From: Campylobacteraceae bacterium
GTDB taxonomy: Bacteria; Campylobacterota; Campylobacteria; Campylobacterales; Campylobacteraceae
NCBI GenBank assembly: GCA_012521935.1
Contig: JAAYLJ010000014.1
Span: forward strand, 1 to 37,753
Direction: 5' to 3'
DNA: 37,753 nt
A program made the position numbers and the translations under genes. Below are positions 17,707 through 36,663 of this stretch, in pieces. Each line of letters starts with the position of its first letter. Within the stretch, counting starts at the first letter, position 1. The notes beneath the pieces were generated by a model. It had not been told where the DNA came from and did no database searches. It worked only from the letters and a program-made list of their open reading frames with translations.

Positions 17707-17724
17707 GAAAACTTTAGGTATTAT

Positions 17725-17746: not shown

Positions 17747-17754
17747 GGGTTAGT

Positions 17755-17973: not shown

Positions 17974-18699
17974 ATGGCAATTAGAAGCGTTAAATACATG
18001 GGAGATGAGTTTCTTATCTCTTATGATAAAGTTACAAATAAAGCCAATAAAGTAGCTCTATTTCTACATGGATGGGGTTCAAGTAAGGAGTTAATGAAGA
18101 GCGTTTTTGCAAAAACTCTACCCCAGTTTGATCACTACTATGTAGATTTGCCTGGATTTGGAAATTCAACCATTCCTAAAGCGTTAAATAGCTATGAGTA
18201 TCACAAGGTTTTAAAACTCTTTTTAAAAGAGTTAAATATTGAGCCAGATATGATTATAGGGCACTCCTTTGGTGGTAAAATAGCCACTTTGTTAAATCCT
18301 CCACTATTAATTTTACTAAGTAGCGCTGGAATTTTTAGAAAAAAATCAATTAATATCAGAATGAAAATCTATATTTTTAAGATTTTAAAAAGAGTTGGTT
18401 TGGGAAAATTTTATAAGCTCTTTGCATCAAAAGATGTGAAAAATGCAGATAAAACTCTGTATGAAACTTTTAAAAAAGTTGTTGATGAGGATTTTAAAGA
18501 AGAGTTTGCAAACTTTAAAAATAAAGCTTTAATCTTTTGGGGAGTAAAAGATAGGGCAACCCCACTAGCTAGCGGTAAAATGATTGAGAGTTTAATAGAA
18601 AAAAGCCACTTTTATGCACTAGATGGGGATCATTTCTTCTTTTTAAATAGTGCTAATTTCATTGAGCAAACCATAAGGAAAAATTGTGAAAATATTTGA
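17974..18699 (+). CDS. Alpha/beta-fold hydrolase (esterase-like), function unknown
   Basis: HGWGSS oxyanion motif, GHSFGG nucleophile elbow, and a C-terminal LDGDHFFF putative catalytic His. The ATG directly follows the upstream TAA. 14-nt overlap with murF. Confidence 0.8.
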   Translation: MAIRSVKYMGDEFLISYDKVTNKANKVALFLHGWGSSKELMKSVFAKTLPQFDHYYVDLPGFGNSTIPKALNSYEYHKVLKLFLKELNIEPDMIIGHSFGGKIATLLNPPLLILLSSAGIFRKKSINIRMKIYIFKILKRVGLGKFYKLFASKDVKNADKTLYETFKKVVDEDFKEEFANFKNKALIFWGVKDRATPLASGKMIESLIEKSHFYALDGDHFFFLNSANFIEQTIRKNCENI

Positions 18700-23565: not shown

Positions 23566-24279
23566 ATGAGATATTTAATAACATATTCACTTTTTTTGTC
23601 ACTTTTTTTGACAGGTTGCGCTACAACTGTTGCTGATCCAAAGATAGATATGTCGCCACCAGCTTATGTAGAAGAGTTGCCACCAAAAGCACCTGCTAGC
23701 AATATATCTCACCCAGGTTCTTTATTTGGAAGAGGGGACAATCCTTTGTTTGGCGATAGAAAAGCTATGAATCCAAATGATATTGTTACAGTATTTATAA
23801 GTGAAAGTCTTATTCAAAGCTCAAAAGCAAGCAAGAGTCTTTCAAAGTCAAACACTAGCAATCTTGGAGGTGGAGCAATCACAAATGGGGTGCCAAATAC
23901 TCCATTAGCACCTGTAACTGATGAAAGTAATAAATATACTAGCATTGGATTTGAAACAAACTCTGGCAGTAATTTTGCAGGTAGTGGATCAAACTCTAGA
24001 AATGAGAGTTTTTCTACAACTATATCTGCAAGAATTATTAAAGTGATGAATAACGGTAACTACTTCATTGAAGGTAGTAGAGAGTTACTTTTAAATGGAG
24101 AGAAGCAAGTTATTCAAATAAGTGGAGTGATTAGGCCTTATGATATTTCACAAAACAATCAAATCGACTCCAAACATATTGCTGACGCAAAAATACTATA
24201 TTTAAGTCAAGGCGATATTCATAAAAGTTCAGTCAAGCCTTGGGGTACAAAGATTATAGAATCTATTTGGCCCTTTTAG
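23566..24279 (+). CDS. flgH: Flagellar L-ring lipoprotein
   Basis: Lipobox LFLTGC. FlgH-type C-terminal region (ISARIIKVMNNGNYFIEGSRELLLNGEKQVIQISGVIRPYDI). 237 aa. Confidence 0.9.
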   Translation: MRYLITYSLFLSLFLTGCATTVADPKIDMSPPAYVEELPPKAPASNISHPGSLFGRGDNPLFGDRKAMNPNDIVTVFISESLIQSSKASKSLSKSNTSNLGGGAITNGVPNTPLAPVTDESNKYTSIGFETNSGSNFAGSGSNSRNESFSTTISARIIKVMNNGNYFIEGSRELLLNGEKQVIQISGVIRPYDISQNNQIDSKHIADAKILYLSQGDIHKSSVKPWGTKIIESIWPF

Positions 24280-25517
24280 TTCTTAACTGCTTGCGCCATA
24301 TCCCACATTGGCATGAAAATGCCAAGAGCTAGTAAAAGCACAATGGCTGCAATAAAGCCAATTAATATTGGCTCAATATAGCTTGCGATATTGTCAATGA
24401 TGTTGTTGAATTTTGATTTGAAATAGTTAGTTACCTTTTCAAGCATAGTGTCTAAACTACCACTTTGCTCTCCAGCCCCAATCATTTGGATAAGCATTCC
24501 TTCATAAAGGCCTGTCTCTTCAAATGATTTGGTTAAAGAGACTCCTCTTTGAACAGATATTTTAACACCGCTTAATTTTCTTTTTAAAAAACTATTGCTA
24601 ATGGTGAGTAAAGAGGTATCAAGCGCGTCACCCACTGGGATACCAGCTCTTACTAACTCTGTAAAAACAAGATTAAATCTACTCATAGTTGAGTAAAAAA
24701 CTATATCACCAATGAGATATACTTTAAAAATATGTTCATCAACAAAATTTTTAAACTCTTCATTATTGTTGTACATATATTTAGATACAAAAAAAACTCC
24801 AACTATTCCAGCCAATACAAAAAATCCATAATTGCTTATTAAATTCTCTAGCCATAGTAAAATTTTAGTAGGGAGGGGTAGTTCGGATTTGAATTTATCA
24901 AATATAGATTTAAATTTTGGAACTACATAAACCATAAGAATGGTAAAAGCGATAGCGATGGCTATTACTACTGTGATTGGATATCTTATTGCTTTTTTAA
25001 ATTTTTGCCCATTTTCGTAAACTTCTTCCAAAATTTCGGCGAGTTTTTCTAAAGATTCTGCCATATTCCCAGTATTTTCCCCAAGTTCTACCATGGCAAT
25101 GGTAACATCACCTAAATCATCTTTAAAATTGGTTAAAGATTCAGTTAAGCTAAGTCCTGAGTTAAGATCATCGTCAGCTTGAGCAAAAATCTCTTTTAAT
25201 CTTTTGTCTGAAGATGCATTAGAAACCTCTTTTATACTATCGTGTATAGATATGCCAGCATTTGCCATTACGCTTAATTGCCTAATAGCTACAATCAAAG
25301 CTGGCATTTTAACACCCTTTTTAAACATGGTGGCTAAAATTTTATCTTTATATATAGAAAATTGTTCTTCTATTGGAGGTGCGCTTTCAATGACTTTTAA
25401 AACGATGCCAGAAGTTCGGTTTTTAGCAATTGTTAAAGCATCATTTCTATTTTGAGCTTTAAGTAACTTTTTCTCTCTTTTGCCTTTAAATAGGTACTCT
25501 ACTTCAAAATATTTCAT
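24276..25517 (-). CDS. ctsF: GspF/PilC-family inner-membrane platform protein (Cts-type)
   Basis: 413 aa. Two T2SS-F type repeats, each followed by hydrophobic spans, and a C-terminal GIFMPMWDM string typical of GspF/PilC. ATGA overlap with the upstream ATPase gene. Confidence 0.85.
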   Translation of the reverse strand: MKYFEVEYLFKGKREKKLLKAQNRNDALTIAKNRTSGIVLKVIESAPPIEEQFSIYKDKILATMFKKGVKMPALIVAIRQLSVMANAGISIHDSIKEVSNASSDKRLKEIFAQADDDLNSGLSLTESLTNFKDDLGDVTIAMVELGENTGNMAESLEKLAEILEEVYENGQKFKKAIRYPITVVIAIAIAFTILMVYVVPKFKSIFDKFKSELPLPTKILLWLENLISNYGFFVLAGIVGVFFVSKYMYNNNEEFKNFVDEHIFKVYLIGDIVFYSTMSRFNLVFTELVRAGIPVGDALDTSLLTISNSFLKRKLSGVKISVQRGVSLTKSFEETGLYEGMLIQMIGAGEQSGSLDTMLEKVTNYFKSKFNNIIDNIASYIEPILIGFIAAIVLLLALGIFMPMWDMAQAVKN

Positions 25518-27265
25518 GATTTTGTCACCCTTAATATTTCATCAATTGTAGTAACGCCAGAGGCTGCTCTAATTACACCATCTTTAAACATATCGATAAA
25601 TCCTTCGCTTAAAGCCTGTTTATGCAGCTCTTCTTTTGTGGCACCTTGAGCTATCAAGCTAGCAATTTTTTCGCTAATTGGTAAAATTTCAGAAAGCATC
25701 TCTCTTCCTAAGTAGCCTGTTTGAGAGCATTTTTCACACCCAACACTTTTATAAAACTCAAATTTATTAGGTAGATGCTCTTTTATTTGATCAAATAGTG
25801 TTTTTGGTAGATTAACCTTACTTTTACAGTGTGGACATAGTTTTCTAACTAATCTTTGAGCTTCAATAGCTACCAAAGCCCCACTTACTAAATAAGACTC
25901 AATTCCCATATCTAAAACTCTAGTAACAGCACATATAGCGTCATTTGTATGGAGGGTGGAGAAAACTAAATGGCCTGTAAGCGCTGCTTGAATTGCTATG
26001 CGCAGAGTCTCTTGATCTCTAACTTCACCAATCATAATAATATCAGGATCTTGTCTTAGTATTGATCTTAAAGCTGAAGCAAAAGTTAATCCAGCCTTTT
26101 CATTGACTTGAGTTTGTTGGGTTAAATTTAACTGATACTCTACAGGATCTTCTACCGTGATAATCTTAGTTTGTATGCTTTTAATGGCATTTAAAGCGGC
26201 ATATAAAGTGGTTGTTTTACCACTTCCTGTTGGGCCTGTTACAAAAATGATTCCATAAGGAACTTTCATGGCTTGTGAGAATTTTGTAAAATTATCTGGA
26301 TGCATTCCTAGATTTTCAAGCTTTATGACTACTTTTGATTTATCTAAAATTCTTAAAACAATGGATTCACCTTGCATTATAGGAAGTGTTGAAATCCTAA
26401 AGTCATACTCTTTTCCCATTATGCTAGCTGAAAATCTTCCATCTTGGGGTTTTCTTCTCTCTGCTATATCCATATTTGATAAAAGCTTAAGCCTTGAAGA
26501 AAGTGGAGGGTAGATATCTTTATCGAAAATGAAAGCTTCTGTAAGCATTCCATCGATCCTAGTTCTAACTATACAGTTATTTTCTGTTGGCTCAATGTGC
26601 ACATCACTAGCTCTTGATAGGATTGCAGTTTTTAAAATGATTTCAATGAGTTTTAAAATCCCAGAAGACTCTTGAGGATTTTCTGAAGCGCTTGAGGAGA
26701 GCTCTTTTCTAATCTCTGAAATTAAACCCTTAATACTCTCACTTAATTCCATCTTATTTAAATATTTTTCTATCTGATTTGGCTCAGCTACGACTATTTT
26801 TATAAGTTTTCTATTAAATACTCTTTGGATGCCCTCTTGTGCTAGCATATTTGTTGGATCTTTTAATGCTATATATACATTAATTTCATCCTCTTTTATG
26901 GGTAGAGCGCTATATTTTTTAAGTTGCGATAGTGGGGCTTTGCTAGCTATCCTATAGTCAATATCGATTGAGTCTAAATCCATATACTCATATCTTAAAT
27001 TTGCTGCTAAGTTTTTTAGAAAAAAATCAATATCAAGCGAGAGTTCGCTATTTATCTCATCAAAAGAGAGAGTTCCATTTTTGTAAAGCTCTATGGCTAA
27101 GGTTATTAAACTATCTTGATCAAAGATTTTCTCTTCAACTAAAAAAGAGCCAATAGTGCTTACCCCATCTTCAATCTTTTGCTCTATCAAAGAGGCGGTA
27201 TGATTATCTACAATACGGTTTCTATTTAAATATTCAAAAAGTTTTTTTCTTCCTAGCATTACCAA
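25514..27265 (-). CDS. ctsE: GspE/PilB-family secretion/assembly ATPase (Cts-type)
   Basis: Walker A GPTGSGKTTT, Walker B DPDIIMIGEVRD, His box GHLVFSTLHTND, and a tetracysteine motif CPHC...CEKC. 583 aa with a GspE-N-like N-terminal domain. Confidence 0.9.
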   Translation of the reverse strand: MVMLGRKKLFEYLNRNRIVDNHTASLIEQKIEDGVSTIGSFLVEEKIFDQDSLITLAIELYKNGTLSFDEINSELSLDIDFFLKNLAANLRYEYMDLDSIDIDYRIASKAPLSQLKKYSALPIKEDEINVYIALKDPTNMLAQEGIQRVFNRKLIKIVVAEPNQIEKYLNKMELSESIKGLISEIRKELSSSASENPQESSGILKLIEIILKTAILSRASDVHIEPTENNCIVRTRIDGMLTEAFIFDKDIYPPLSSRLKLLSNMDIAERRKPQDGRFSASIMGKEYDFRISTLPIMQGESIVLRILDKSKVVIKLENLGMHPDNFTKFSQAMKVPYGIIFVTGPTGSGKTTTLYAALNAIKSIQTKIITVEDPVEYQLNLTQQTQVNEKAGLTFASALRSILRQDPDIIMIGEVRDQETLRIAIQAALTGHLVFSTLHTNDAICAVTRVLDMGIESYLVSGALVAIEAQRLVRKLCPHCKSKVNLPKTLFDQIKEHLPNKFEFYKSVGCEKCSQTGYLGREMLSEILPISEKIASLIAQGATKEELHKQALSEGFIDMFKDGVIRAASGVTTIDEILRVTKS

Positions 27266-27807
27266 AAAGCCCTTGTTTTAATTAATTTATCTTCTTGAAA
27301 AGTTTTGATTATTAGTTTATAAAAATCATCATTTGATTTAACTACATTAACTCTATATGTAAACTCTTCATCTTTAAAAATGAGCTCATCTCCATTTTTT
27401 TCATAATTTTGAGTGACATAAAGATCAAAAATCGTTGATAATATATGTTTTGTTCTAGGTAGCCTAACATAAGATATGTCAACATTATCAACTAGCGCAT
27501 GGTAGAGTAGTTTTTTTTGATATAAAACAGTTGCAAAATAGACTGAATTTGCCCTAGTTTGTGGAGATCTAATGAGTTTGTTTATAGGGTTTACTGTTCT
27601 ACTTATCATATCTGTTTCCACGCAAGAGTGTCCATACATATTAACAAACTCTTCATTATCGTGATAGTGTTCATAGATTGTAGTAACCTCTTGACTGCAA
27701 ACCTTACTATATTCACCATTTTCATACCAAGTTTTAATAGTTTCAATGGGTATGATGGCATAAGAGTAGAGTGAAAAGAGTGTTAAAAGTGTGAAAAATC
27801 TCATCAT
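27259..27807 (-). CDS. Exported or membrane-anchored protein of unknown function inside the cts-like operon
   Basis: 182 aa. N-terminal hydrophobic signal/anchor (MMRFFTLLTLFSLYSYA) and two Cys residues. No motif I recognise. Coupled by overlaps on both sides (4 nt and 7 nt). It sits in the position immediately upstream of ctsE. Confidence 0.55.
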   Translation of the reverse strand: MMRFFTLLTLFSLYSYAIIPIETIKTWYENGEYSKVCSQEVTTIYEHYHDNEEFVNMYGHSCVETDMISRTVNPINKLIRSPQTRANSVYFATVLYQKKLLYHALVDNVDISYVRLPRTKHILSTIFDLYVTQNYEKNGDELIFKDEEFTYRVNVVKSNDDFYKLIIKTFQEDKLIKTRAFW

Positions 27808-28598
27808 TGGAAAGTGCCCCTTTTTAAGCTAATAAGTAAAGACTCTATTTTGCCAGAATTATTATTTTTTAAATACTCTTCTAAAGCCATAATCCCTTCA
27901 TCAGGAAGATTAAGCTTAGCTTTAGACATTGCAAAAATCATCCAGCTTTTTTCATTTTTAGGATTAATTTCATTAGCAGTAAGTGCCCATCTAAGCGCAT
28001 TTTGGTACTCATTATTTGCATAATACTCCTCAGCCACCATTAGTGCAAATATAACATTTCCAGTTGAATCAAATTTTTCTTTTAAATAGTTTATAGAATT
28101 TCTATCAACTGGCTGCATATCAATATGAATTTTTGGTCTATTTTCTACTACTATCGTATCTTCATTTTTAGGCTTACTACTCTTTTTTGCTACTGTTTCT
28201 TCTGGATTAGGTGCAACTTCTTTAGCTTCGTTAATCTCTTTTACCGCTACATCTTCTGGCTCAAGCGCAATCTCTTCAGTTTTTGGAGTGCTTAATTTAC
28301 TTACTGTTTTTGGTTTTGGAGTGTAAGTAGAGGGTGGCAGTGATTGGATTGAGAGTTTTGGCGGCTCATCAGCACTATTAACTAACTGCTGCTCTTCTTC
28401 TTTCAAAGGAGTTTGTTCTTTTTTAATTGTTAATTCATTTTTTTTATTATCAAAAGGCATGTATTGATAGGCTGAGTATATTAAACAAGGGGCAATAATC
28501 AAAACAAAAAGGGATAAAAATAGCTTCATTAGCCTTTTTAATTTCCACTTCTTCCATCTTTTTTCTAGTTCAAAAATATGTTCGGGACTAAGCATCAA
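27804..28598 (-). CDS. Bitopic membrane protein: short basic N-terminus, one TM, Pro/Lys/Glu-rich linker, C-terminal TPR-like domain
   Basis: 264 aa. TM span LFLSLFVLIIAPCLIYSAY, then about 110 aa of low-complexity P/K/E/T sequence. The C-terminus fits TPR periodicity (AEEYYANNEYQNALRWALTANEINPKNEKSWMIFAMS...). 11-nt overlap with the upstream AAA gene. Confidence 0.55.
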   Translation of the reverse strand: MMLSPEHIFELEKRWKKWKLKRLMKLFLSLFVLIIAPCLIYSAYQYMPFDNKKNELTIKKEQTPLKEEEQQLVNSADEPPKLSIQSLPPSTYTPKPKTVSKLSTPKTEEIALEPEDVAVKEINEAKEVAPNPEETVAKKSSKPKNEDTIVVENRPKIHIDMQPVDRNSINYLKEKFDSTGNVIFALMVAEEYYANNEYQNALRWALTANEINPKNEKSWMIFAMSKAKLNLPDEGIMALEEYLKNNNSGKIESLLISLKRGTFQ

Positions 28599-29403
28599 TT
28601 AGCCCTGAACTTATTGCTGCTAATTCAATATATTTTGTTTTTGCTACCTTATTATTTATCTTTGAAGGCTTGCTGTTTTCAAAATACTCATAAATTTCAA
28701 AAAATTTATGTAACAATTTATTCACTGTCCTTAAGTTTCCATTAGTTAGTTTACAAATATAGTTTAACTGCTTTTTTTTAAAAAAAGATAAAAACTCAAA
28801 AAACCCATGAAAAAGGAATTTTTTCTCTAAATATAGCCTTACTTCATCTGAATTAGAGTTTGGTAGTTCAATGGTTTCCCAAATTCTAGTTGTAAAGTAA
28901 TCTTTAGCTAACAACTCCTCTTTTTCAGTTTTATGAACTGTAAATAAAAATTTAAAGAGCCTAGTATCTGCCATTAATCTAATTTTTTCAATAAGCTCAT
29001 TTGGGTATAGCTGCGCTTCATCTAAAAGAACTGTTATGGCTATATTTACATCTGTTTCTTGATGATTTTTATAAAGTTTTAAAAAATGCTCATAACCATC
29101 TATTTTGGGGGCAGTTTCATTGAAGATAGATTCATACAAAGAGAGTAAAAACTGCTCTTCATCAAAAAAAGGTTGCGGGAAAAATATGATTGGTTGTTTG
29201 TTTTTTAAATCTTGATTTATTTTTCTTAAAAGATAGGTTTTGCCAGTACCAGGTTTGCCGTAAAAAAGTATCAGTTTTAGTGGTTTTTGTAGTGCTTGAA
29301 CTAGTGCTTCATAAGAGAGGGTAGATTTATCTAAATTGACATAGTCAAAAACCGTACCCTCAATAAAAATATTTTTAACATCACCATATCGATTTTTATT
29401 CAT
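28588..29403 (-). CDS. ctsP: ExeA/GspA-like P-loop AAA ATPase (Cts-type)
   Basis: Walker A GKPGTGKTYLL and Walker B-like VLLDEAQL. 271 aa with no TM span and no recognisable peptidoglycan-binding domain. Immediately downstream of the secretin gene. Confidence 0.7.
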   Translation of the reverse strand: MNKNRYGDVKNIFIEGTVFDYVNLDKSTLSYEALVQALQKPLKLILFYGKPGTGKTYLLRKINQDLKNKQPIIFFPQPFFDEEQFLLSLYESIFNETAPKIDGYEHFLKLYKNHQETDVNIAITVLLDEAQLYPNELIEKIRLMADTRLFKFLFTVHKTEKEELLAKDYFTTRIWETIELPNSNSDEVRLYLEKKFLFHGFFEFLSFFKKKQLNYICKLTNGNLRTVNKLLHKFFEIYEYFENSKPSKINNKVAKTKYIELAAISSGLIDA

Positions 29404-30883
29404 AGATAGATTTTGAAAACCCTAAATCTTTTAGTGTTTGCACATGTTTTGTCTCTGCTCCTATAATTCTTGGAGTTATAACAAAAACAAGTTCTGAACT
29501 TCTAGAGACATTTTTAGTACTTTTGAAAGCATGTCCTAAAATTGGTAAATCCCCAAGAAGAGGTACTTTAGTATTAGATAGTCCAGTAAAATTTTCAATC
29601 AAACCACCAAGAATGATAGTATCTCCACTTTTAACTTTTGCAACTGTAGAGAGTTTTTTCTCAGTAGTATCTGGCGCCATTACTCGCTCCTGTCTAGCGT
29701 CATCTTCTTCATACTTGAAGCTACTTATGGATGGATTTATTCTTAGCATTATATCATCATGATCTGAAATTTCAGGAAGAAGATTGAGTAAAACACCTAT
29801 AAAAACTGAATAGTTATTGTATGTAGTTGTTATATTGTCTCCATCGGACCTACTTGTGTCTTCTTGTACTCTATAATTTATATTATCTCCCACTGTAATT
29901 AGCGCTTGTTGGTTATTCATGGTTATAACTTTTGGACTAGAGAGTACTTTTGTTTCACCATTTGTTTTTAGAAAATTAATCAAGCCTTCCATAGAAAAAG
30001 TTAAGTTATTAACTATATTTATATTTTTAGTCCAGCTTTTTCCAGAGTTATCTCTTGTGCTTTGGAAAAAAGCAGTTGAAGGATCTAGTGGATTGCCATC
30101 TCTATCTAAATTAATCCCTAATTCAAACTTACTCCAATCAATCCCTGTTGTATGTCCTGAATCTAGCTCAACTGAGATAACTGATACATCAATCATAACT
30201 TGCTTATGAAGCCTCTCTTTTAAATCATCAAGATAAAGTTCAGCTCTTTTTAGTTGAGACTCTGTGCCAGTAATAGTAATAAGCCCAGCTTTTCTATTTA
30301 TGATAGGTGATTGGGCTTGATATGATTCAACTCCACTATTTAAAATAGAAGTTAACTCACTATCTAATGTTTCCCAAAAGTCAAACTCTTCAGAAACTCT
30401 AATCTCATTTTCTGACATAGTAGCAGTATCTCTTCTATCCCCATCTTCTATTGGGATGGCGGAAACAGAGGCATTTAAGATAGCAGTTCCTTGTCTGATG
30501 GAAGTTATATAATCAAGCCTATAAGTTTTAGTTTGAAGAGCAGAGACTCTTAGTATATTGTTTTCATATATGTAGTTAAGGTTATGTTCTTCTAATAAAA
30601 TGTCAAAGATTTCTCTTAAAGTTAAATCTTTTATATTAAACCCATTTAACTCTTCTCTTAGAGCGCTTGCAGCATATGGATCTTTGATGGCAACACTAAA
30701 GCCACACATGTCTGAAAACTGATTTACAACTTCTCTAATGGTAACTGATTCATTAATTTTCACACTAAAAATTCTATAATCACAGCTTTTTTCTACCTCA
30801 GCGTTAAGACTATTAACAAAAAATAGTAGTAAAAAAGCAAAGAGATAAAAAAGCTTATTTGGTAGAGATGATGACATTTTCAT
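29396..30883 (-). CDS. ctsD: Outer-membrane secretin (PilQ/GspD family, Cts-type)
   Basis: Signal peptide ...FFVNSLNA. Secretin domain strings NNQQALITVGDNINY, VPLLGDLPILGHAFKS, SELVFVITPRII. 495 aa. No AMIN-like N-terminal repeats and no lipobox. Confidence 0.9.
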   Translation of the reverse strand: MKMSSSLPNKLFYLFAFLLLFFVNSLNAEVEKSCDYRIFSVKINESVTIREVVNQFSDMCGFSVAIKDPYAASALREELNGFNIKDLTLREIFDILLEEHNLNYIYENNILRVSALQTKTYRLDYITSIRQGTAILNASVSAIPIEDGDRRDTATMSENEIRVSEEFDFWETLDSELTSILNSGVESYQAQSPIINRKAGLITITGTESQLKRAELYLDDLKERLHKQVMIDVSVISVELDSGHTTGIDWSKFELGINLDRDGNPLDPSTAFFQSTRDNSGKSWTKNINIVNNLTFSMEGLINFLKTNGETKVLSSPKVITMNNQQALITVGDNINYRVQEDTSRSDGDNITTTYNNYSVFIGVLLNLLPEISDHDDIMLRINPSISSFKYEEDDARQERVMAPDTTEKKLSTVAKVKSGDTIILGGLIENFTGLSNTKVPLLGDLPILGHAFKSTKNVSRSSELVFVITPRIIGAETKHVQTLKDLGFSKSIYE

Positions 30884-31295
30884 ATCCTTTATTAGATAAC
30901 TTTAAATTTAGTGAATTTTGCTGACCAACTAAGGTAGCACTATTTTGAGTAATTTTAGCTACGCGGTAACCATCTATATTTTCTCCAACTTTAAGCCAAG
31001 TTTTATTTATCTTAGCTCTATTTTCAATGACTGCGTAGAGTATGTATGATATTTTTTTAGGAGCAGCGTCGGAAGCTTTGCCCTCACCGTTACTTGCTTG
31101 AGATGGTTTAAATAAAAAAGGATCTTTAAGCTTTTGAAAACTACTTTTCTCTAGCCCAAATCTTTTTGTATTTATCGAATCAAATAAATTGTCATAAGCT
31201 TGCAAATTTTCTTCCATAGAAGAGTCTGCTTTTAGAGCTAAAGTAGCTAAAAGCAAGATCGATATATATTTTATTTTCAATATTTCATCCCCCAT
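30855..31295 (-). CDS. Small exported protein, PilP/GspC-HR-like (by position and topology)
   Basis: 146 aa. Signal-like ISILLLATLALKA. The beta-rich C-terminus YILYAVIENRAKINKTWLKVGENIDGYRVAKITQNSATLV resembles the PilP/GspC secretin-contact domain pattern. Directly upstream of the secretin gene (29-nt overlap). Confidence 0.45.
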   Translation of the reverse strand: MGDEILKIKYISILLLATLALKADSSMEENLQAYDNLFDSINTKRFGLEKSSFQKLKDPFLFKPSQASNGEGKASDAAPKKISYILYAVIENRAKINKTWLKVGENIDGYRVAKITQNSATLVGQQNSLNLKLSNKGYENVIISTK

Positions 31296-31915
31296 ACAGC
31301 TATTTTCATACTTCCATCTAATTTATCACTACTTACGATTTCTACCTCATAAATATCTACAACTAAACGATTTTCCTCTATAGTATTGATAAATTTTAAT
31401 ATATCTATAAATCTGCCACTAAAATCTAGCTCAATAGTCAATACTTGCTCGATTTTTTGAAGTGAAGGCTCTTTAAATTCATTGGAAATCTTTTTTAGAT
31501 TGATTCTATTCTCTTTGGCTAAAAAAGCTAAATTGTCTAAAAATAAAGACCAATTTTTGTCATTAAAAAGTAAATATGATAGATCTTTTAGCTTATTATC
31601 TACATAAGAGTTAGTATTTATTGTCTTTTCTAAATCAATTTTTGCTTGCTCTATCTCATTGTTAAACTTTGTAACATAGTAGTTTCTATCTCCATTTATG
31701 GCGATAGATTGCTCATAATTTTTCTCTTCTTTGTATTTTGCAAGAGTTTGTTTATGTTCATTTGAAGTTTTCTTCAAAAAATTAGTAGAAGAGTCAAAAC
31801 TGTAAGTATAGGTTAAAAAAGCTATAAGTACAGCAAATATTAAAATCAAAAGCCTCGCTTCATTTGGCTTTTTGCCATTTAAATACAGATCAATTTTTTC
31901 AAATATAGTTTCCAT
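31277..31915 (-). CDS. Bitopic protein, PilO/GspM-like (by position and topology)
   Basis: 212 aa. One N-terminal TM (ARLLILIFAVLIAFLTYTYSF), a coiled-coil segment, and a C-terminal alpha/beta-type region (LTIELDFSGRFIDILKFINTIEENRLVVDIYEVEI). It holds the third functional position in an M-N-O-P-Q ordered string. Confidence 0.5.
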   Translation of the reverse strand: METIFEKIDLYLNGKKPNEARLLILIFAVLIAFLTYTYSFDSSTNFLKKTSNEHKQTLAKYKEEKNYEQSIAINGDRNYYVTKFNNEIEQAKIDLEKTINTNSYVDNKLKDLSYLLFNDKNWSLFLDNLAFLAKENRINLKKISNEFKEPSLQKIEQVLTIELDFSGRFIDILKFINTIEENRLVVDIYEVEIVSSDKLDGSMKIAVWGMKY

Positions 31916-33445
31916 TTACTGCACCTTTACACTAACATCACTACTATAATAAGAGCTTTTATCCTCTTTGACTATCTCTTTAGTTGAAACTGAATATATC
32001 TCTTTGTGCGTAAAATCTTTTAATAATTCTGTAAGTTTTTTCTCATCTTTGCTAAGCAAAGAGAGAATTATTTTAGCCTTTTCAATCTCAATTTTTTCTA
32101 ATCTCACGCCTCTTTGGTTAGTTAGTGAAATTAAATCATTTAAAATTACACCCTTCATTGGATATTTATTCTTTTTATCATGAATTTCAACTAAAAGTTT
32201 TTTTCTAAAATCTAACTTCTCATTTTCAGCTTTTTTCTTTTCATTTAAGGTGGTTTTTTCTGCTTCTAGTTGAGAGAGTATCTCTTTTGTTTGATTATTT
32301 TTTTTATGCAACTCTATGTACTCATTGTAGATAGATTTTTGTTCAAATGAGAGATATGCCCCATAGCCAAATTGATAAGCAGGGTAGGCTATGGTTGCTA
32401 AAAAAGCAATCCCAGCAGCTATTAAAAGCTTACCACTTGCTCTTTTATTGAAAGCTGGAGGTCTTTTGTAAATGGTAAAATTGATACTATCATCAAACTC
32501 TTCAAGGTATGTTTGAGCAGTTAGTACCATTAGGATATGCATTTGATCTACATACCATTCTTTAGAGTTAATGGCGATATTAAAGTTAAAGTCATACGAT
32601 TCTAACCCAAGATATGTTTTAGAGTACTCTTCTATTCCGCTTATCGCGCCAATTTCACTACCTATATAAAATCTATCAATAGAGTCAATGGAGTAGCCTC
32701 TTTTTGCAAAAATTAAGACATCATTAATGTATAGAAAAACTTCTCCAAAAAGTTGCATTAAAAATTGCTGGTAGGTTGGGTTTGAAAGTTTCATCCCCTC
32801 ATTTGATAAAAGAGTATAAAAATCCTCTTCCTCAACTCTTTCGCCTAATAGTTCGCAAAATTTTTCACTAATCTCTTTGAGAGAGTATCTAAGTGGTTTT
32901 GAGTAAAGATATTTTCCATCTCTATATATAGCTAAAAATGAGTCATTTTTTTGAAGATAGACAAAACAGTGAGTACCACCTTTTTCTAATACATTTTTAC
33001 TATATAAAGCACCTAATAAAAATGGAGCAGTGGTGATGTAGTCTATATATTTTGTTTTTGTTCTAACAGATTCAAACTCTGTTTTAACTAAATTTGCGTC
33101 AATAGCAAAAACATTTAATAGCCTATTTGAAGTATTGTTAGCTTCTAGCTCAATAAATGAAATTTTATATTCAGTTCCAGTGTCTAAGCCTAGTTCATCA
33201 TAAGCCTTTATTTCTACTGCGTCTTGTAGATCTTCTTCTGGAATTGATCTACTAATTTCAAAAGAGGAGGTTATGACATCTCTAGCTTTAATGTAAGAGA
33301 CTACAAATTCGCTACTATGAGAAGATTTGCCTAGATTGTGGGGCTTTATCTCATTTCTAAAAAACTTATATGAGCGAGCCGACTGGGGATCAACTGTAAC
33401 AATGGATGTCAGTTTTTTTAATGAATTACTATTTTCCATACCCAA
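31916..33445 (-). CDS. PilM-PilN fusion / GspL-like protein (cytoplasmic actin-like domain + TM + periplasmic coiled coil)
   Basis: 509 aa. Residues 1 to about 335 are soluble with PilM-like strand patterns (THCFVYLQKNDSFLAIYRDGKYLYSKPLRYSLKEI; FYIGSEIGAISGIEEY). TM at about aa 339-364, then a Lys/Glu-rich coiled coil and a C-terminal domain. Start is TTG 33445 or ATG 33439. The call rests on topology and gene order. Confidence 0.5.
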   Translation of the reverse strand: MGMENSNSLKKLTSIVTVDPQSARSYKFFRNEIKPHNLGKSSHSSEFVVSYIKARDVITSSFEISRSIPEEDLQDAVEIKAYDELGLDTGTEYKISFIELEANNTSNRLLNVFAIDANLVKTEFESVRTKTKYIDYITTAPFLLGALYSKNVLEKGGTHCFVYLQKNDSFLAIYRDGKYLYSKPLRYSLKEISEKFCELLGERVEEEDFYTLLSNEGMKLSNPTYQQFLMQLFGEVFLYINDVLIFAKRGYSIDSIDRFYIGSEIGAISGIEEYSKTYLGLESYDFNFNIAINSKEWYVDQMHILMVLTAQTYLEEFDDSINFTIYKRPPAFNKRASGKLLIAAGIAFLATIAYPAYQFGYGAYLSFEQKSIYNEYIELHKKNNQTKEILSQLEAEKTTLNEKKKAENEKLDFRKKLLVEIHDKKNKYPMKGVILNDLISLTNQRGVRLEKIEIEKAKIILSLLSKDEKKLTELLKDFTHKEIYSVSTKEIVKEDKSSYYSSDVSVKVQ

Positions 33446-33474: not shown

Positions 33475-34353
33475 CTATTCGTGATAGCCCATTTTTTTTA
33501 ACTGCTTAGTATCTTGAGTCCACCCTGGCTTAACTGCTACAAAAAGTTTAAGGAAAACCTTCTTCTTGATAAACTCTTCAATCAGAAGTCTCGCATGTTT
33601 TCCTATCCTGCTTATTGTTGTTCCAGATTTTCCTATTAGGATATTCTTTTGACTCGGTTTTTCGATTATTATTGTAGCATAAATTTTTTCTAAATCATAC
33701 ATTTCTTCAACTTTTTCAACTAAAACATCACTAACATAAGGGATTTCTTCGCTAGTTTTTTCAAAAATAGCTTCTCTAATAAATTCTCTATAAATCTCCC
33801 TTATAGGGGCGTTAGTTAAGTTTTCTGGATCATAAAGATGAGGATGAATTGGTAGATATTTTACTATCTCCTCAAGAATGGCTCTTTTAGTAATACTTTT
33901 TTTTGTAGAGGTAGGAATCAAAGCTTTAAAATGGTTTTGAAACTTTTCATACTCTTTTATCTTTTTTAAGATTTTTCCCTCATCATAAAGATCACTTTTT
34001 GTTAAAAGTAAAATATGAGGAGCTTTTGGATTTAACTCTAAAAACTGTTCATACTCTTTTGTTGAGTCAGTAATTGGGGCTAAAAAGAGGATTAAATCAC
34101 AATCTCCTATGGCTTTTAAAGCTTCTTGAAGCATAAATTGGTTTAATTTTTTCTCTTTTTTATGAAGCCCTGGAGTGTCAATTAGTATTATTTGATTATT
34201 TTCATGCATTAAAATAGCTAAAAATCTCTTTCTAGTTGCATTTGCTTTTTGAGAAACTAAAGCTAACTTTTCACCAACTAGCCAATTTATAAGCGTGCTT
34301 TTTCCAGCGTTTGGTTTGCCAATAATCGATACAAAGCCAGTTTTAGTGCTCAA
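33475..34353 (-). CDS. era: GTPase Era
   Basis: G1 GKPNAGKST, G3 DTPG, G4 TKSD, and a C-terminal KH domain. 292 aa. ATGA-type overlap with hslU. Confidence 0.93.
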   Translation of the reverse strand: MSTKTGFVSIIGKPNAGKSTLINWLVGEKLALVSQKANATRKRFLAILMHENNQIILIDTPGLHKKEKKLNQFMLQEALKAIGDCDLILFLAPITDSTKEYEQFLELNPKAPHILLLTKSDLYDEGKILKKIKEYEKFQNHFKALIPTSTKKSITKRAILEEIVKYLPIHPHLYDPENLTNAPIREIYREFIREAIFEKTSEEIPYVSDVLVEKVEEMYDLEKIYATIIIEKPSQKNILIGKSGTTISRIGKHARLLIEEFIKKKVFLKLFVAVKPGWTQDTKQLKKMGYHE

Positions 34354-35672
34354 AGAATATACCTTGCGCTATCCTCATCTTCTATGATTGAGTCTAGTTT
34401 TTCATGAATTATTTTTTTATCAATATGTAAGGTTGTGCCCTCATAATCTTTTGCGTTAAAGCTAATATCTTCAAGAGTTTTTTCTATGATGGTATGAAGT
34501 CTCCTAGCTCCAATATCTTCCATCTTTTCATTTGCTATTTGGGCGGTATGAGCTAGAGCCTTAATGGCTTCATCTTCAAAAACCAACTCAACTCCTTCGG
34601 TTTTTAAAAGAGCTTCATATTGCCTTAATAATGAGTGTTTTGGCTTAGTCAAAATCTGATACAAAACCTCTTCATTTAGACTCTCAAGCTCAACTCTTAA
34701 AGGAAATCTTCCTTGAAGTTCTGGGATTAAATCTGATGGTTTTGTTAAATGAAATGCCCCAGCAGCGATGAAAAGAATGTGATCAGTTTTAATCACTCCA
34801 TATTTTGTAGATACGGTTGAGCCTTCAACTATGGGTAAAAGATCCCTTTGAACCCCTTCTTTACTTGGATCTTGTCTATTTTGAGATCCAGATGAGACTG
34901 CTATTTTATCTATCTCATCAATGAAAATTATCCCACTTTCTTCTGCTTTTTTCAAAGCCTCACTTTTTATAAGCTCCATATCTAGCAATGCTTCAGATGC
35001 TTCAACTCTTAAAGCATCCTTTGCATCTTTAATTTTTAACTCTTTTTTAACTGGCTTATTTCCCATTCCTAAAATTTTTATAAAATTTTCTTGAACTTTT
35101 ACAACTTCAGGTGGTAAGTTTTCTGGAGATTCTTGGGTTGTTTGTCTAATCTCTACTTCAATTTTCAAATCATCCAAATCTCCATCTCTTAGTCTTTGTC
35201 TCATCTTATTTGAGCTAATTTCATAATCTCTTTGTTTTTCACTACTTGCACCTTTTGGAAGAGGGGGCAAAAGTCTTTCAATAATCTTATCTTCAACAAA
35301 GAAGTCAATATTTTTTCTATTTTTCTCTCTATACTCATTTTTAACTAAATTTAATGAAGCGTTTACTAAATCTCTAACCATTGATTCAACATCTCTTCCA
35401 ACAAACCCAACTTCAGTATATTTACTAGCTTCAACCTTTACAAAAGGAAGAGACATCATCTTTGCAAGTCTTCTTGCAATTTCAGTTTTACCAACACCTG
35501 TTGAGCCAATCATAAGTATATTTTTAGGGATAATCTCCTCTTGAAGCTCTTTTGGGAGCTGCATTCTTCGGCGTCTCTGTCTTAGAGCGACAGCTCTTAT
35601 TTTTTTAGCATCTTTTTGCCCAATGATATACTCATCTAAGTATTTAACTATCTCTTTTGGTGTTAAATTCAT
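34350..35672 (-). CDS. hslU: ATP-dependent protease ATPase subunit HslU
   Basis: LTPKEIVKYLDEYIIGQKDAKK N-terminus, Walker A GSTGVGKTEIARRLAK, Walker B IIFIDEIDK. 440 aa. Confidence 0.95.
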   Translation of the reverse strand: MNLTPKEIVKYLDEYIIGQKDAKKIRAVALRQRRRRMQLPKELQEEIIPKNILMIGSTGVGKTEIARRLAKMMSLPFVKVEASKYTEVGFVGRDVESMVRDLVNASLNLVKNEYREKNRKNIDFFVEDKIIERLLPPLPKGASSEKQRDYEISSNKMRQRLRDGDLDDLKIEVEIRQTTQESPENLPPEVVKVQENFIKILGMGNKPVKKELKIKDAKDALRVEASEALLDMELIKSEALKKAEESGIIFIDEIDKIAVSSGSQNRQDPSKEGVQRDLLPIVEGSTVSTKYGVIKTDHILFIAAGAFHLTKPSDLIPELQGRFPLRVELESLNEEVLYQILTKPKHSLLRQYEALLKTEGVELVFEDEAIKALAHTAQIANEKMEDIGARRLHTIIEKTLEDISFNAKDYEGTTLHIDKKIIHEKLDSIIEDEDSARYIL

Positions 35673-35677
35673 CTATT

Positions 35678-36214
35678 TTAATCCTCTAAAGAATATATAT
35701 TTATATTTTTATTTGTATATATACATAGTTCTGCGGCAATGTTTAAACTCTCTTTGACTATCTCTTGTGGTGAAAGATTTGAGTGTTTATCTAACGCTCT
35801 TGCTGCGCTTAATGCAAAGTTTCCACCACTTCCAATAGATGCAATCTTACCATCTTCTGGCTCAACCACATCCCCATTTCCACTTAAAATAAATAGATTT
35901 TTCCTATCAAGCACCAACATCATCGCTTCAAGTCTTCTTAAGTATTTATCTTTTCTCCATGCTTTTGAAAAATCAATCGCTGCTTTTAGCAAATCACCTT
36001 TTCTTTGCTCTAAAAAACCTTCAAACATATCAAATAGATTAAAAGCATCTGCTGTACTTCCAGCAAAACCAGCTAAAATCTTCCCTTGATAAAGCTTTCT
36101 TATCTTAATGGCATTTGATTTTAATACAGCATTTCCAAAAGTCACCTGCCCATCACCGCCTATGACGGACTCTTTTTTACCTTTATAGGCTAAAATTGTA
36201 GTTGCTTCAAACAA
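35678..36214 (-). CDS. hslV: ATP-dependent protease subunit HslV
   Basis: N-terminal TTILAYKG (catalytic Thr after Met removal) and [14 protein letters not shown]. 178 aa. Confidence 0.95.
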
Positions 36215-36216
36215 AA

Positions 36217-36663
36217 CTACTCTCCTATTACTTCTAGTGATAGTTTAGCAACTATCCCGTGTCCTAATTTTATACCAATATCATATCCACCAATAGTTTT
36301 AATGGGTTTATCAACCTCAACTGTCTTTTTATCAACCTCAAATCCATGTTCTTCATTTAAACTATTTGCAATCTCATCTTTAGTAACAGCTCCAAAAAGA
36401 CTTCCATTAGCACCAAGCGGCCTAGCAATGGTTAGTTTAACTTTTTCTATCTTCTCTTTTAAAGCTTTTAACTCTTCAATTTTTGCTGCTTCTTCCTCAG
36501 CTTCTCTTTTTTTCTTTGCTTCAAACTGTCTAATCACCTCTGGTGTAGCTAGCTTTGCAAAACCTTTTGCTATTAAAAAGTTTTGTCCATATCCATCTTT
36601 AACCTCTTTGATTTCACCAGCTTTTCCTAAACTTTTAACATCTTTTATAAGTAAAACTTTCAT
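36217..36663 (-). CDS. rplI: 50S ribosomal protein L9
   Basis: [32 protein letters not shown]-terminus. 148 aa. 1-nt TAATG overlap with argG. Confidence 0.95.

What the first reader, a model, noticed from the sequence alone, without database searches (positions are those of the whole stretch)
24276..33445. Gap-free nine-gene operon fusing a pilMNOPQ-type alignment/secretin module to a Cts-type (ExeA-like, GspE, GspF) module
Seen in sequence: nine minus-strand ORFs with zero or negative intergenic distance (junctions 0, 19, 29, 8, 11, 4, 7 and 4 nt of overlap). The order is [509-aa cytoplasmic domain + TM + periplasmic coiled coil] - [212-aa bitopic] - [146-aa exported, beta-rich] - secretin - P-loop AAA - bitopic TPR protein - 182-aa exported unknown - GspE/PilB ATPase - GspF/PilC platform. 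Established knowledge, from memory: the M-N-O-P-Q order is the canonical type IVa pilus alignment/secretin operon, and the D-P-X-E-F order is the C. jejuni cts natural-transformation locus (Wiesner, Hendrixson and DiRita 2003). Inference: here the two modules form one translationally coupled unit, an almost complete envelope-spanning T2SS/T4P-like machine. The window contains no pilin or pseudopilin, no prepilin peptidase, no PilT-type retraction ATPase and no ComEA/ComEC. As far as I know, an M/N/O/P-type alignment subcomplex has not been described as part of the Cts machine. So the accessory half of this operon (five of nine genes) is essentially unassigned. Whether the machine takes up DNA, builds a fibre or secretes a substrate cannot be told from sequence.
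Basis: partly seen in the sequence, partly recalled or inferred. Interest (0 to 1): 0.7.

Follow-up and report, generated by a model that had tools for sequence, protein, structure and literature searches.

The report
MSHA-type pilus assembly operon, Campylobacterota
The nine tightly packed genes are real, but they are not a new fusion of two modules: they are a Campylobacterota copy of the known MSHA-type type IV pilus assembly operon (mshI-J-K-L-M-N-E-G plus one extra gene), so this is an ordinary though poorly annotated member of a known kind.

Summary
Nine minus-strand ORFs lie at 24276-33445 with the stated junctions, and their order is conserved in more than 40 Campylobacterota genomes, including named Campylobacter species.

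The order is PilM-PilN fusion, PilO-like, small exported HR-type protein, secretin, ExeA-like AAA, bitopic TPR, GspE-type ATPase, GspF-type platform. That is gene for gene the mshI-J-K-L-M-N-E-G order of the Aeromonas caviae MSHA locus I fetched for comparison.
- The secretin passes NCBIfam's MshL equivalog cut-off.
- The 509-aa protein folds as PilM plus TM, coiled coil and a ferredoxin-like domain.
- All 25 scanned members of the 212-aa family hit Pfam PilO.
- The 146-aa family aligns to Aeromonas MshK (hhalign E 2e-6).

Denise, Abby and Rocha (2019) already reported MSH-type systems in Epsilonproteobacteria. [quoted passage not shown]

Three things depart from the textbook locus: one extra 182-aa exported protein of unknown fold, loss of the MshE c-di-GMP motif, and conserved linkage to era-hslUV. 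The biological role (DNA uptake as in C. jejuni Cts, or adhesion) is inferred, not shown.

Verdict: new member of a known kind, modest interest.

The parts
31916..33445 (-). g1, MshI-like: a PilM-PilN fusion. Cytoplasmic actin-like domain, TM helix at about 336-354, long coiled coil, periplasmic ferredoxin-like domain. The true start is probably the ATG at 33439.
   Evidence: AF2 model with pLDDT 81.4. Top Foldseek PDB hits are PilM (5eoy, 5eou, 2ych, 3jc8_Ma; E 1e-13 to 1e-10), then FtsA, then the GspL cytoplasmic domain. Pfam finds nothing in the window protein, and only 1 of 24 relatives hits PilM_2. TM position.
31277..31915 (-). g2, MshJ/PilO-like bitopic protein (TM 22-40).
   Evidence: Pfam PilO in 25 of 25 family members (best 2e-7) and T2SSM_b in 12. 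The best PDB profile hit is M. xanthus PilO 3jc8_Oa, E 0.025. Aeromonas MshJ gives the same weak PilO/T2SSM signature.
30855..31295 (-). g3, MshK-like small exported protein with a C-terminal HR-type (GspB/GspC/PilP-like) beta domain. It has no Cys, so it is not a lipoprotein.
   Evidence: hhalign of the family against Aeromonas MshK: probability 89.5%, E 2e-6, 39 columns. 6 of 28 members hit Pfam T2SSB. Aeromonas MshK itself hits Y4YQ_C, T2SSC and T2SSB. The start MGDE is conserved.
29396..30883 (-). g4, MshL-type secretin with a signal peptide and no lipobox.
   Evidence: TIGR02519 pilus_MshL 257.5 bits against a cut-off of 250.2. GspD, PilQ, SctC and HofQ models all score far below their cut-offs. 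Pfam Secretin 3.8e-46, plus weak sub-threshold matches to Secretin_N_2 and STN. Its best match in the Aeromonas chromosome is the MshL gene (H4).
28588..29403 (-). g5, MshM-like (ExeA/GspA-type) cytoplasmic P-loop ATPase. Walker A is GKPGTGKT at residue 49 and the Walker B-like motif is VLLDE at 125. No TM helix.
   Evidence: Pfam AAA_22 1.1e-9. BLASTP to Aeromonas MshM: 26% identity, E 3e-11. Motifs.
27804..28598 (-). g6, MshN-like bitopic protein: short cytoplasmic N-terminus, TM 23-41, Pro/Lys/Glu-rich linker, C-terminal TPR domain.
   Evidence: ANAPC3/TPR in 21 of 23 family members. It has the same position and architecture as Aeromonas MshN. Direct sequence homology was not detected.
27259..27807 (-). 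g7, lineage-specific exported protein of unknown fold. Two invariant Cys (C37, C62), a helical N-part and a beta C-part. It has no counterpart in the Aeromonas MSHA locus used for comparison.
   Evidence: No Pfam or NCBIfam hit and no PDB hit. The single-sequence AF2 model is unusable at pLDDT 51.6. Conserved in 24 loci and absent from others.
25514..27265 (-). g8, MshE-type extension ATPase: MshEN N-domain, T2SSE core, Walker A at residue 344, two CxxC motifs.
   Evidence: Pfam T2SSE 5e-131 and MshEN 2.8e-16. 36% identity, E 1e-125 to Aeromonas MshE. Its best place in the Aeromonas chromosome is the MshE gene (H32). Its NCBIfam score pattern matches that of Aeromonas MshE, except that the c-di-GMP motif NF053729 is missing.
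24276..25517 (-). g9, MshG-type (GspF/PilC) inner-membrane platform with three TM segments.
   Evidence: Pfam T2SSF x2, 4.6e-50. 32% identity, E 1e-67 to Aeromonas MshG. TM segments.
33475..34353 (-). era, the immediately upstream same-strand neighbour (29-35 nt gap). This is context, not a machine part. It may be co-transcribed with the nine genes.
   Evidence: Translation. era-g1 adjacency is conserved across Campylobacterota.

Best explanation
This is a Campylobacterota version of the MSH (MSHA-type) type IVa pilus assembly operon, mshI-J-K-L-M-N-(x)-E-G.

How it most likely works (inferred from homologous machines, not shown here):
- MshG (g9) forms the inner-membrane platform.
- The hexameric ATPase MshE (g8) docks on it from the cytoplasm and drives insertion of pilin subunits into a growing fibre.
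- MshI (g1, fused PilM-PilN) and MshJ (g2, PilO-like) form the bitopic alignment ring. It couples the cytoplasmic motor to the periplasm.
- The HR-type domain of MshK (g3) contacts the N0 domain of the MshL secretin (g4), through which the fibre leaves the cell.
- MshM (g5, a GspA/ExeA-like P-loop ATPase) and its membrane partner MshN (g6, TPR) help the secretin assemble or anchor.
- g7 is an added periplasmic accessory of unknown role.

Pilins, the prepilin peptidase and any retraction ATPase must be encoded elsewhere, as is usual for MSH loci.

Most likely role: a short competence or adhesive pilus. I favour DNA uptake (about 55%) over adhesion/biofilm (about 35%). The only experimentally studied relative in this phylum that I know of is the C. 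jejuni ctsD-P-X-E-F system, and it is needed for natural transformation.
For: - The gene order and gene count match a bona fide MSHA locus from the Aeromonas caviae chromosome (L001).
- The secretin passes the MshL equivalog cut-off. So do its Campylobacter orthologues (261-278 bits) and the Aeromonas control (279 bits).
- BLASTP to the Aeromonas proteins: MshE 1e-125, MshG 1e-67, MshL 9e-35, MshM 3e-11.
- Within the Aeromonas chromosome, the best places for g4 and g8 are the msh genes rather than the other secretin and ATPase matches in that record.
- g1 has a PilM fold followed by TM, coiled coil and an alpha-beta-beta-alpha-beta-beta domain.
- g2 is PilO in 25 of 25 scanned family members.
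- g3 aligns to MshK by hhalign, E 2e-6.
- g6 has the same topology, TPR domain and position as MshN.
- The published survey found MSH-type systems in Epsilonproteobacteria, found no prepilin peptidase in MSH loci, and treats mshA as a possible loner gene (PMC6668835).
- The GspB HR domain binds the secretin N0 domain and works with the GspA ATPase (PMC9239104).
- The operon is conserved in 56 genome loci and in named Campylobacter species.
Against: - No pilin gene is in the window, so the mandatory mshA could not be shown.
- g1, g2 and g6 show no direct sequence similarity to Aeromonas MshI/I1, MshJ or MshN. Their assignment rests on fold, Pfam family, topology and position.
- The ATPase scores about equally against the GspE and PilB models. 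Its catalytic core is 47% identical to E. coli GspE, against 36% overall to MshE.
- g8 lacks the MshE c-di-GMP motif.
- g7 has no MSHA counterpart.
- The functional role is pure inference. No Cts protein sequence was available to test orthology.
Confidence: 0.8

Rival explanations
1. One reading: a previously undescribed chimeric machine in which a classical T4aP pilMNOPQ alignment/secretin module has been joined to a separate Cts-type (secretin-P-X-E-F) module.
For: The upstream three genes are M/N-O-P-like. The downstream order resembles ctsD-P-X-E. No paper found in the library describes MshI/J/K-type proteins for Cts.
Against: - The same complete order exists in the Aeromonas MSHA locus, so no fusion event is needed.
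- The secretin fails the PilQ model (113.7 against 284) and passes MshL.
- PilM and PilN are fused, and the P-like protein is not a lipoprotein, unlike classical PilMNOP.
- The arrangement is found in every Campylobacterota lineage sampled here, which suggests it is ancestral.
Confidence: 0.07
2. A type II secretion system (or T2SS-like exporter) that secretes folded proteins using a pseudopilus encoded elsewhere.
For: The GspE model gives the top ATPase score (530 bits) and GspF the top platform score. The ATPase core is 47% identical to E. coli GspE. GspA/GspB-like accessories (g5, g3) are known from T2SS. The g1 fold also matches the GspL cytoplasmic domain at E about 1e-5.
Against: - All Gsp equivalog scores are well below their cut-offs: GspD 161 against 351, GspE 530 against 630, GspF 256 against 424.
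- Bona fide Aeromonas MshE and MshG show the same sub-threshold Gsp scores.
- The locus holds no GspC and none of GspG-K.
- PilM is a much better structural match than GspL.
Confidence: 0.06
3. The machine is the same MSH-type one, but its role is surface adhesion or biofilm formation, as for Vibrio and Aeromonas MSHA pili, rather than DNA uptake.
For: All well-studied MSH pili are adhesins (established knowledge; PMC9815625 and PMC4624765 appear). Many carriers are biofilm- and mat-forming environmental Campylobacterota. MSH-like T4P genes have been proposed to build the cell-connecting filaments of Thiovulum (PMC9938260).
Against: The c-di-GMP switch that couples MSHA to surface attachment is not conserved in g8. 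The only experimentally characterised relative in this phylum that I know of serves natural transformation.
Confidence: 0.3

Closest known systems
[quoted passage not shown]
   Same: - The order I-J-K-L-M-N-E-G is identical.
- The secretin is MshL-type and passes the equivalog cut-off.
- An ExeA-like MshM and a bitopic TPR MshN sit between the secretin and the ATPase.
- The ATPase has an MshEN N-domain.
- The locus holds no prepilin peptidase.

   Different: - No mshH, no mshF and no adjacent pilin operon (mshBACDOPQ).
- PilM-like and PilN-like parts are fused in one protein, whereas in Aeromonas they are split into MshI and MshI1.
- There is an extra 182-aa exported protein between N and E.
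- MshN is shorter.
- The secretin is not a lipoprotein.
- The MshE c-di-GMP motif is not detected.
- I, J and N are too diverged for direct sequence detection.
- The operon is embedded behind era-hslUV.
Campylobacter jejuni Cts natural-transformation system, ctsD-ctsP-ctsX-ctsE-ctsF (cj1474c-cj1470c; Wiesner, Hendrixson and DiRita 2003)
   Same: Same phylum. The locus numbering in PMC8308473 gives the order secretin, small P-loop NTPase, small CtsX component (a bitopic membrane protein as I recall the literature), GspE-type ATPase. That ctsF, a GspF-type platform, follows is from memory. The pilins lie elsewhere.
   Different: - From the literature, Cts proteins are shorter: CtsP 202 aa against 271, CtsX 195 against 264 or 182, CtsE 519 against 583.
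- No MshI/J/K-type genes have been described next to ctsD; a 105-aa ctsR (cj1475c) carries the adjacent locus number.
- As far as I recall, the cts locus is not next to era.
- Sequence orthology could not be tested because no C. jejuni sequence was reachable with these tools.
Classical type IVa pilus PilMNOPQ alignment/secretin operon (Pseudomonas, Myxococcus, Neisseria)
   Same: g1 has a PilM fold followed by PilN-like topology. g2 is in the PilO family. g3 is a small periplasmic HR-type protein sitting before the secretin. The functional logic of a trans-envelope alignment complex is the same.
   Different: M and N are fused. g3 is not a lipoprotein and matches T2SSB/MshK rather than the PilP model. 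The secretin fails the PilQ model. In the classical system, PilB/PilC are never in the same operon as the secretin with MshM/N-type genes between them.
GspA-GspB (ExeA-ExeB) secretin-assembly pair of type II secretion systems
   Same: g5 is an AAA_22 P-loop ATPase like GspA. g3 carries a T2SSB/HR-type domain like GspB, which binds the secretin N0 domain (PMC9239104).
   Different: g5 has no TM segment or peptidoglycan-binding domain. g3 is exported rather than bitopic. The two genes are not adjacent.

Membership tests
MSH (MSHA-type) type IV pilus system | MshL-type secretin | tested here: met
   TIGR02519 equivalog: 257.5 bits against a cut-off of 250.2. Campylobacter orthologues score 261-278 and the Aeromonas MshL control 279.
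MSH (MSHA-type) type IV pilus system | MshE ATPase (MshEN N-domain plus T2SSE core) and MshG platform | tested here: met
   Pfam MshEN, T2SSE and T2SSF. 36% and 32% identity to Aeromonas MshE and MshG. The best place for g8 in the Aeromonas chromosome is the MshE gene. The NCBIfam score pattern matches that of true MshE and MshG. No MshE- or MshG-specific equivalog model matched either the window proteins or the Aeromonas controls, so this is best-hit evidence only.
MSH (MSHA-type) type IV pilus system | MshM (ExeA-like AAA_22 ATPase) directly after the secretin, followed by a bitopic TPR MshN | tested here: met
   g5: AAA_22, and BLASTP 3e-11 to Aeromonas MshM. g6: TM helix plus TPR in 21 of 23 family members. 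Direct g6-MshN homology was not detected.
MSH (MSHA-type) type IV pilus system | MshI/MshJ/MshK alignment genes directly upstream of mshL, giving the overall order I-J-K-L-M-N-E-G | tested here: met
   The order is identical to Aeromonas locus L001. g1 has a PilM fold. g2 is PilO. g3 aligns to MshK, E 2e-6.
MSH (MSHA-type) type IV pilus system | Major pilin MshA and minor pilins (mshA is mandatory in the MacSyFinder model but may be a loner) | tested here: not met
   No prepilin motif occurs in any frame of the 37.7-kb window. The rest of the genome is not available, so presence elsewhere is not testable.
MSH (MSHA-type) type IV pilus system | c-di-GMP-binding tandem motif at the MshE N-terminus (a Vibrio/Aeromonas trait) | tested here: not met
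   NF053729 scores 73.6 bits in Aeromonas MshE. It is not among the 25 (of 31) families listed for g8. The strict motif regex matched neither protein. A looser one found both motifs in Aeromonas MshE and none in g8. Orthologues keep only the second motif partly.
C. jejuni Cts transformation system | Gene order secretin - P-loop NTPase - small membrane protein - GspE-type ATPase - GspF-type platform | tested here: met
   g4-g5-g6(-g7)-g8-g9 follows this order. The Cts order is taken from locus numbers cj1474c-cj1471c (PMC8308473).
C. jejuni Cts transformation system | Sequence orthology to CtsD, CtsP, CtsX, CtsE and CtsF | not testable with these tools
   No C. jejuni sequence could be obtained.
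C. jejuni Cts transformation system | Required for natural transformation | not testable with these tools
   This needs genetics.
Classical T4aP PilMNOPQ | PilQ-type secretin | tested here: not met
   TIGR02515: 113.7 bits against a cut-off of 284.35.
Classical T4aP PilMNOPQ | Separate PilM, PilN, PilO and lipoprotein PilP | tested here: not met
   M and N are fused in g1. g3 has no Cys or lipobox and no PilP hit.
Type II secretion system | GspD, GspE and GspF equivalogs | tested here: not met
   GspD 160.9 against 351, GspE 530.5 against 630, GspF 256.4 against 424.

The most novel reading that the evidence does not exclude
The era-linked nine-gene operon is the ancestral competence-pilus (Cts) machine of Campylobacterota. 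On this reading, the well-studied C. jejuni ctsD-P-X-E-F locus is a relocated, trimmed derivative. Its MshI/J/K-type alignment proteins would then be either lost or still unrecognised. The uncharacterised 'transmembrane' Cj0660c and 'periplasmic' Cj0659c, which I recall lying next to era, are candidates. The 182-aa g7 family would be a new, phylum-specific periplasmic component, possibly a pilotin-like secretin factor.
Probability: 0.3. Interest if true: 0.5.

Novelty: new member of a known kind. Interest (0 to 1): 0.3.

Why it matters
- **Annotation.** In the genomes where a source gives a name, the g1 family is almost always 'hypothetical protein', and the precomputed Pfam tables show nothing for most accessory genes. 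Recognising the operon as mshIJKLMN-x-EG assigns eight of the nine.
- **Campylobacter competence.** If the Cts system belongs to the MSH class, the missing alignment components of the C. jejuni DNA-uptake machine should be MshI/J/K-like. Non-jejuni Campylobacter species that keep the full operon would be good models for testing this.
- **What it does not do.** It does not reveal a new kind of machine.

Tried and rejected
1. Direct sequence detection for g1 failed. phmmer and a family profile against PDB gave nothing. hhalign against Aeromonas MshI and MshI1 gave nothing. The assignment rests on the structure model.
2. hhalign of the g2 family against MshJ, and of the g6 and g7 families against MshN, gave nothing.
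3. A word-indexed search with g3 found only two near-identical proteins, so no usable alignment for structure prediction was obtained.
The single-sequence model was too poor to search with (pLDDT 51.6). A family profile against PDB returned zero hits.
5. Attempts to reach C. jejuni sequence failed:
   - No Campylobacter chromosome is in the plasmid collection.
   - The two Cts papers are not held.
   - The literature on Cj0658c-Cj0660c gives only generic labels.
6. Promoter and terminator scans are at chance level and say nothing about transcript boundaries.
7. The roughly 2.3-kb insert between era and g1 in Sulfurimonadaceae was checked for pilins. It encodes two exported proteins with no prepilin leader; from their sequence they look like peptidoglycan-related enzymes, though no domain search was run on them.
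8. The Deferribacter megaplasmid secretin locus is a different, conjugation-associated (MPF_I-typed) pilus cluster and was not pursued.

Full report
**Observation**

The junction overlaps of 0, 19, 29, 8, 11, 4, 7 and 4 nt follow from the coordinates. Two qualifications apply.
- The ORF listing reports longest ORFs. g1 probably starts two codons in: M3 is invariant and an identical 507-aa protein is in the database. By my own reading g8 probably starts at its third codon. The genes remain abutting or overlapping either way.
- The tight same-strand run does not start at g1. era ends 29 nt upstream, preceded by hslU, hslV, rplI and argG with gaps of -4 to 5 nt. Consensus promoter and terminator scans are at chance level. 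The 5' end of the transcription unit is therefore undefined.

Downstream, flgH converges on g9 and the two stop codons overlap.

The stated absences hold. No prepilin leader motif occurs in any of the six frames. The 20 ORFs scanned in window 40-18699 are housekeeping genes; three long ORFs between 18686 and 23387 were not scanned.

**What the proteins are**

Pfam and NCBIfam give:
- Secretin for g4.
- AAA_22 for g5.
- TPR/ANAPC3 for g6.
- MshEN plus T2SSE for g8.
- T2SSF x2 for g9.
- A weak PilO match for g2.
- Nothing for g1, g3 or g7.

The decisive hit is the secretin. It passes NCBIfam's MshL equivalog (257.5 bits, cut-off 250.2). It falls far short of GspD (161 against 351), PilQ (114 against 284), SctC and HofQ.

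That pointed to the MSHA-type pilus. Its biogenesis operon in Vibrio and Aeromonas runs mshH-I-J-K-L-M-N-E-G-F (established knowledge).

**Comparison with a real MSHA locus**

A tblastn search with the secretin found a 4.9-Mb Aeromonas caviae record, filed among plasmids but evidently the chromosome. The region around the hit (L001) holds a textbook MSHA locus:
- a 647-aa first ORF, in the position of mshH
- a 291-aa MshI
- a 197-aa PilN-family MshI1
- a 215-aa PilO-family MshJ
- a 121-aa MshK
- a 581-aa MshL
- a 295-aa AAA_22 MshM
- a 394-aa TPR MshN
- a 570-aa MshE
- a 406-aa MshG
- a 152-aa ORF in the position of mshF
- then four prepilins

(Domain calls are; the sequences are.)

The window's order is the same gene for gene, with one extra gene (g7). 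It runs PilM/N fusion, PilO-like, small exported protein, secretin, AAA_22, bitopic TPR, (g7), ATPase, platform.

BLASTP gives E 1e-125 (36% identity) to MshE, 1e-67 to MshG, 9e-35 to MshL and 3e-11 to MshM. Within the Aeromonas chromosome, the best places for g4 and g8 are the msh genes rather than the other secretin and ATPase matches in that record.

As controls, Aeromonas MshE and MshG show the same sub-threshold PilB/GspE and GspF scores as g8 and g9. Aeromonas MshL passes TIGR02519 at 279 bits.

**The three upstream genes**

*g1.*
- An alignment of 24 relatives gave an AlphaFold2 model with mean pLDDT 81.
- Residues about 14-316 form an alpha/beta domain. A single very long helix (336-427) includes the predicted TM segment 336-354. 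The C-terminus is a ferredoxin-like alpha-beta-beta-alpha-beta-beta domain.
- Foldseek against PDB puts PilM first (P. aeruginosa 5eoy and 5eou, T. thermophilus 2ych, the M. xanthus machine model 3jc8; E 1e-13 to 1e-10). FtsA follows, and the GspL cytoplasmic domain appears at about 1e-5.
- g1 is therefore a PilM-PilN fusion, the MshI architecture.
- Sequence methods do not see this. Only 1 of 24 relatives hits PilM_2.

*g2.*
- All 25 scanned orthologues hit Pfam PilO (best 2e-7) and 12 hit T2SSM_b.
- The best PDB profile hit is M. xanthus PilO.

*g3.*
- The family has a signal peptide, an R-x-G...NPF motif and a roughly 55-residue C-terminal beta domain.
- 6 of 28 members hit Pfam T2SSB. Bona fide Aeromonas MshK gives the same weak Y4YQ_C, T2SSC and T2SSB signature.
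- hhalign of the family against Aeromonas MshK gives probability 89.5% and E 2e-6.
- GspB's HR domain binds the secretin N0 domain and works with the GspA ATPase (PMC9239104).

These genes are alignment-complex proteins.

**The remaining accessories**

g5 has intact Walker A and B-like motifs and no TM segment.

g6 has a short cytoplasmic N-terminus, one TM segment, a low-complexity linker and a C-terminal TPR domain in 21 of 23 orthologues. This is the architecture and position of MshN, but direct homology was not detected.

g7 is the one truly unassigned gene.
- It is an exported 182-aa protein with two invariant cysteines, a helical N-part and a beta C-part.
- It has no Pfam, NCBIfam or PDB match.
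- The only structure model I could obtain (single sequence, pLDDT 51.6) is unusable.
- It is absent from some otherwise complete operons.

**Distribution**

The g1 family has 357 representative clusters at 50% identity in the 1.84-billion-protein library. The genome-collection scan returned 56 loci. They come from Sulfurospirillaceae, Sulfurimonadaceae, Nitratifractor and 'Arcobacter' MAGs, and nearly all with enough flank show hslU-era-g1...g9 with flgH convergent.

The genus Campylobacter has the operon too.
- C. pinnipediorum and an uncultured Campylobacter sp. carry all nine genes after argG-rplI-hslV-hslU-era.
- A second uncultured Campylobacter contig shows the same order until it ends just after the AAA gene.
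- Campylobacter sp. CCUG 57310 lacks only g7.
- C. sputorum has era-I-J-K-L-E-G with no M, N or g7.

Tight or overlapping junctions are conserved. The 19-nt g2/g3 overlap is dual-coding...AVWGMKY* and MGDEILK share the same DNA, and both peptides are conserved in all orthologues.

The organism is an uncultured relative of Sulfurospirillum, with best matches of 63-73% identity.

**Prior knowledge**

Denise, Abby and Rocha (PLoS Biol 2019, PMC6668835) define the MSH class. Their points relevant here:
- mshA, E, G, L and M are mandatory, and mshA is allowed as a loner.
- Their models detected MSH systems in Epsilonproteobacteria.
- MshN is homologous to TadD.

A Thiovulum genome paper also mentions MSH-like T4P genes (PMC9938260). 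I found no paper that describes this operon gene by gene in Campylobacterota or links Cts proteins to MshM/MshN.

The C. jejuni order ctsD-P-X-E (cj1474c-cj1471c) and the protein sizes come from PMC8308473. CtsD and ComEC are needed for DNA uptake (PMC10046745).

**Mechanism**

By homology this is an envelope-spanning type IV pilus assembly machine.
- The inner-membrane core is the MshG platform, with the MshE motor acting on it from the cytoplasm.
- MshI and MshJ form the alignment ring.
- MshK is the HR-domain connector to the MshL secretin.
- MshM and MshN act as a GspA-like secretin assembly or anchoring pair.
- g7 is a lineage-specific periplasmic accessory.

Pilins, the peptidase and any retraction ATPase are encoded elsewhere, which is normal for MSH loci.

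The role is inference. I favour a competence pilus because the only experimentally studied relative in this phylum that I know of, Cts, serves transformation. The c-di-GMP switch typical of adhesive MSHA pili is also not conserved. NF053729 scores 73.6 bits in Aeromonas MshE and does not appear for g8, and the first motif is degenerate in all orthologues. Adhesion remains a serious alternative.

**Verdict**

The feature is real and well conserved. It is a new member of a known kind and was misread as a chimera. The residual points of interest are:
- the unassigned g7 family
- the phylum-wide linkage to era-hslUV
- the testable idea that C. jejuni Cts is a trimmed MSH-type system whose alignment proteins are lost or unrecognised

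I could not test the last point, because no C. jejuni sequence was reachable.

Noticed in passing
window 33475-37655 (minus strand): The tight same-strand gene run continues upstream of the nine genes as argG-rplI-hslV-hslU-era, with gaps of -4 to 5 nt and then 29-35 nt to g1. This housekeeping-to-pilus linkage is conserved in Sulfurospirillaceae, Sulfurimonadaceae and genus Campylobacter; era-g1 adjacency is also seen in Nitratifractor. It suggests co-transcription with era.
   Followed up: partly
window 31277-31295: The 19-nt overlap is dual-coding. The g2 C-terminus ...AVWGMKY* and the g3 start MGDEILK are read from the same DNA in two frames. Both peptides are conserved in all orthologues.
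   Followed up: partly
window 27259-27807: g7 belongs to a Campylobacterota-specific exported protein family with two invariant cysteines and no detectable relatives in Pfam, NCBIfam or PDB. It is present in most of these operons but absent from a Sulfurospirillum cavolei-like clade, Campylobacter sp. CCUG 57310 and C. sputorum.
   Followed up: partly
window 27050-27265 (N-terminus of g8): The tandem c-di-GMP-binding motif of MshE is not conserved. NF053729 scores 73.6 bits in Aeromonas MshE and is not among the families listed for g8. The first motif lacks its Gly, and the second is only partly kept in orthologues.
   Followed up: partly
window 24276-24279: flgH (plus strand, 23566-24279) and g9 (minus strand) converge, and their stop codons overlap by 4 nt. 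A weak hairpin at 24344-24360 lies inside the 3' end of g9.
   Followed up: no
L059 10001-17202 (Campylobacter sputorum / sp. RM12327, CP019685.1): This is a reduced version of the operon: era-MshI-MshJ-MshK-secretin-ATPase-platform, with no MshM, MshN or g7. The M/N pair therefore appears dispensable in at least one lineage.
   Followed up: partly
L049 7725-9992 (also L043-L048): Sulfurimonadaceae carry a roughly 2.3-kb insert between era and g1. It encodes two exported proteins of 320 and 434 aa. From their sequence they look like peptidoglycan-related enzymes, but no domain search was run.
   Followed up: partly
L001 (NZ_AP026896.1, PLSDB): The 4.94-Mb record labelled 'Aeromonas caviae plasmid pKAM479_3' is evidently the chromosome. 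It holds hslU and a full MSHA locus, and is nearly unannotated in the collection.
   Followed up: no
window 14176-16089: A 637-aa protein with a FapA_N (flagellar assembly protein A) domain sits immediately upstream of ruvA and ddl.
   Followed up: no
window 40-4314: A succinyl-CoA ligase pair is followed by a four-gene 2-oxoacid:ferredoxin oxidoreductase cluster (ferredoxin, POR_N, TPP_enzyme_C, POR). I read this as typical Campylobacterota central metabolism.
   Followed up: no
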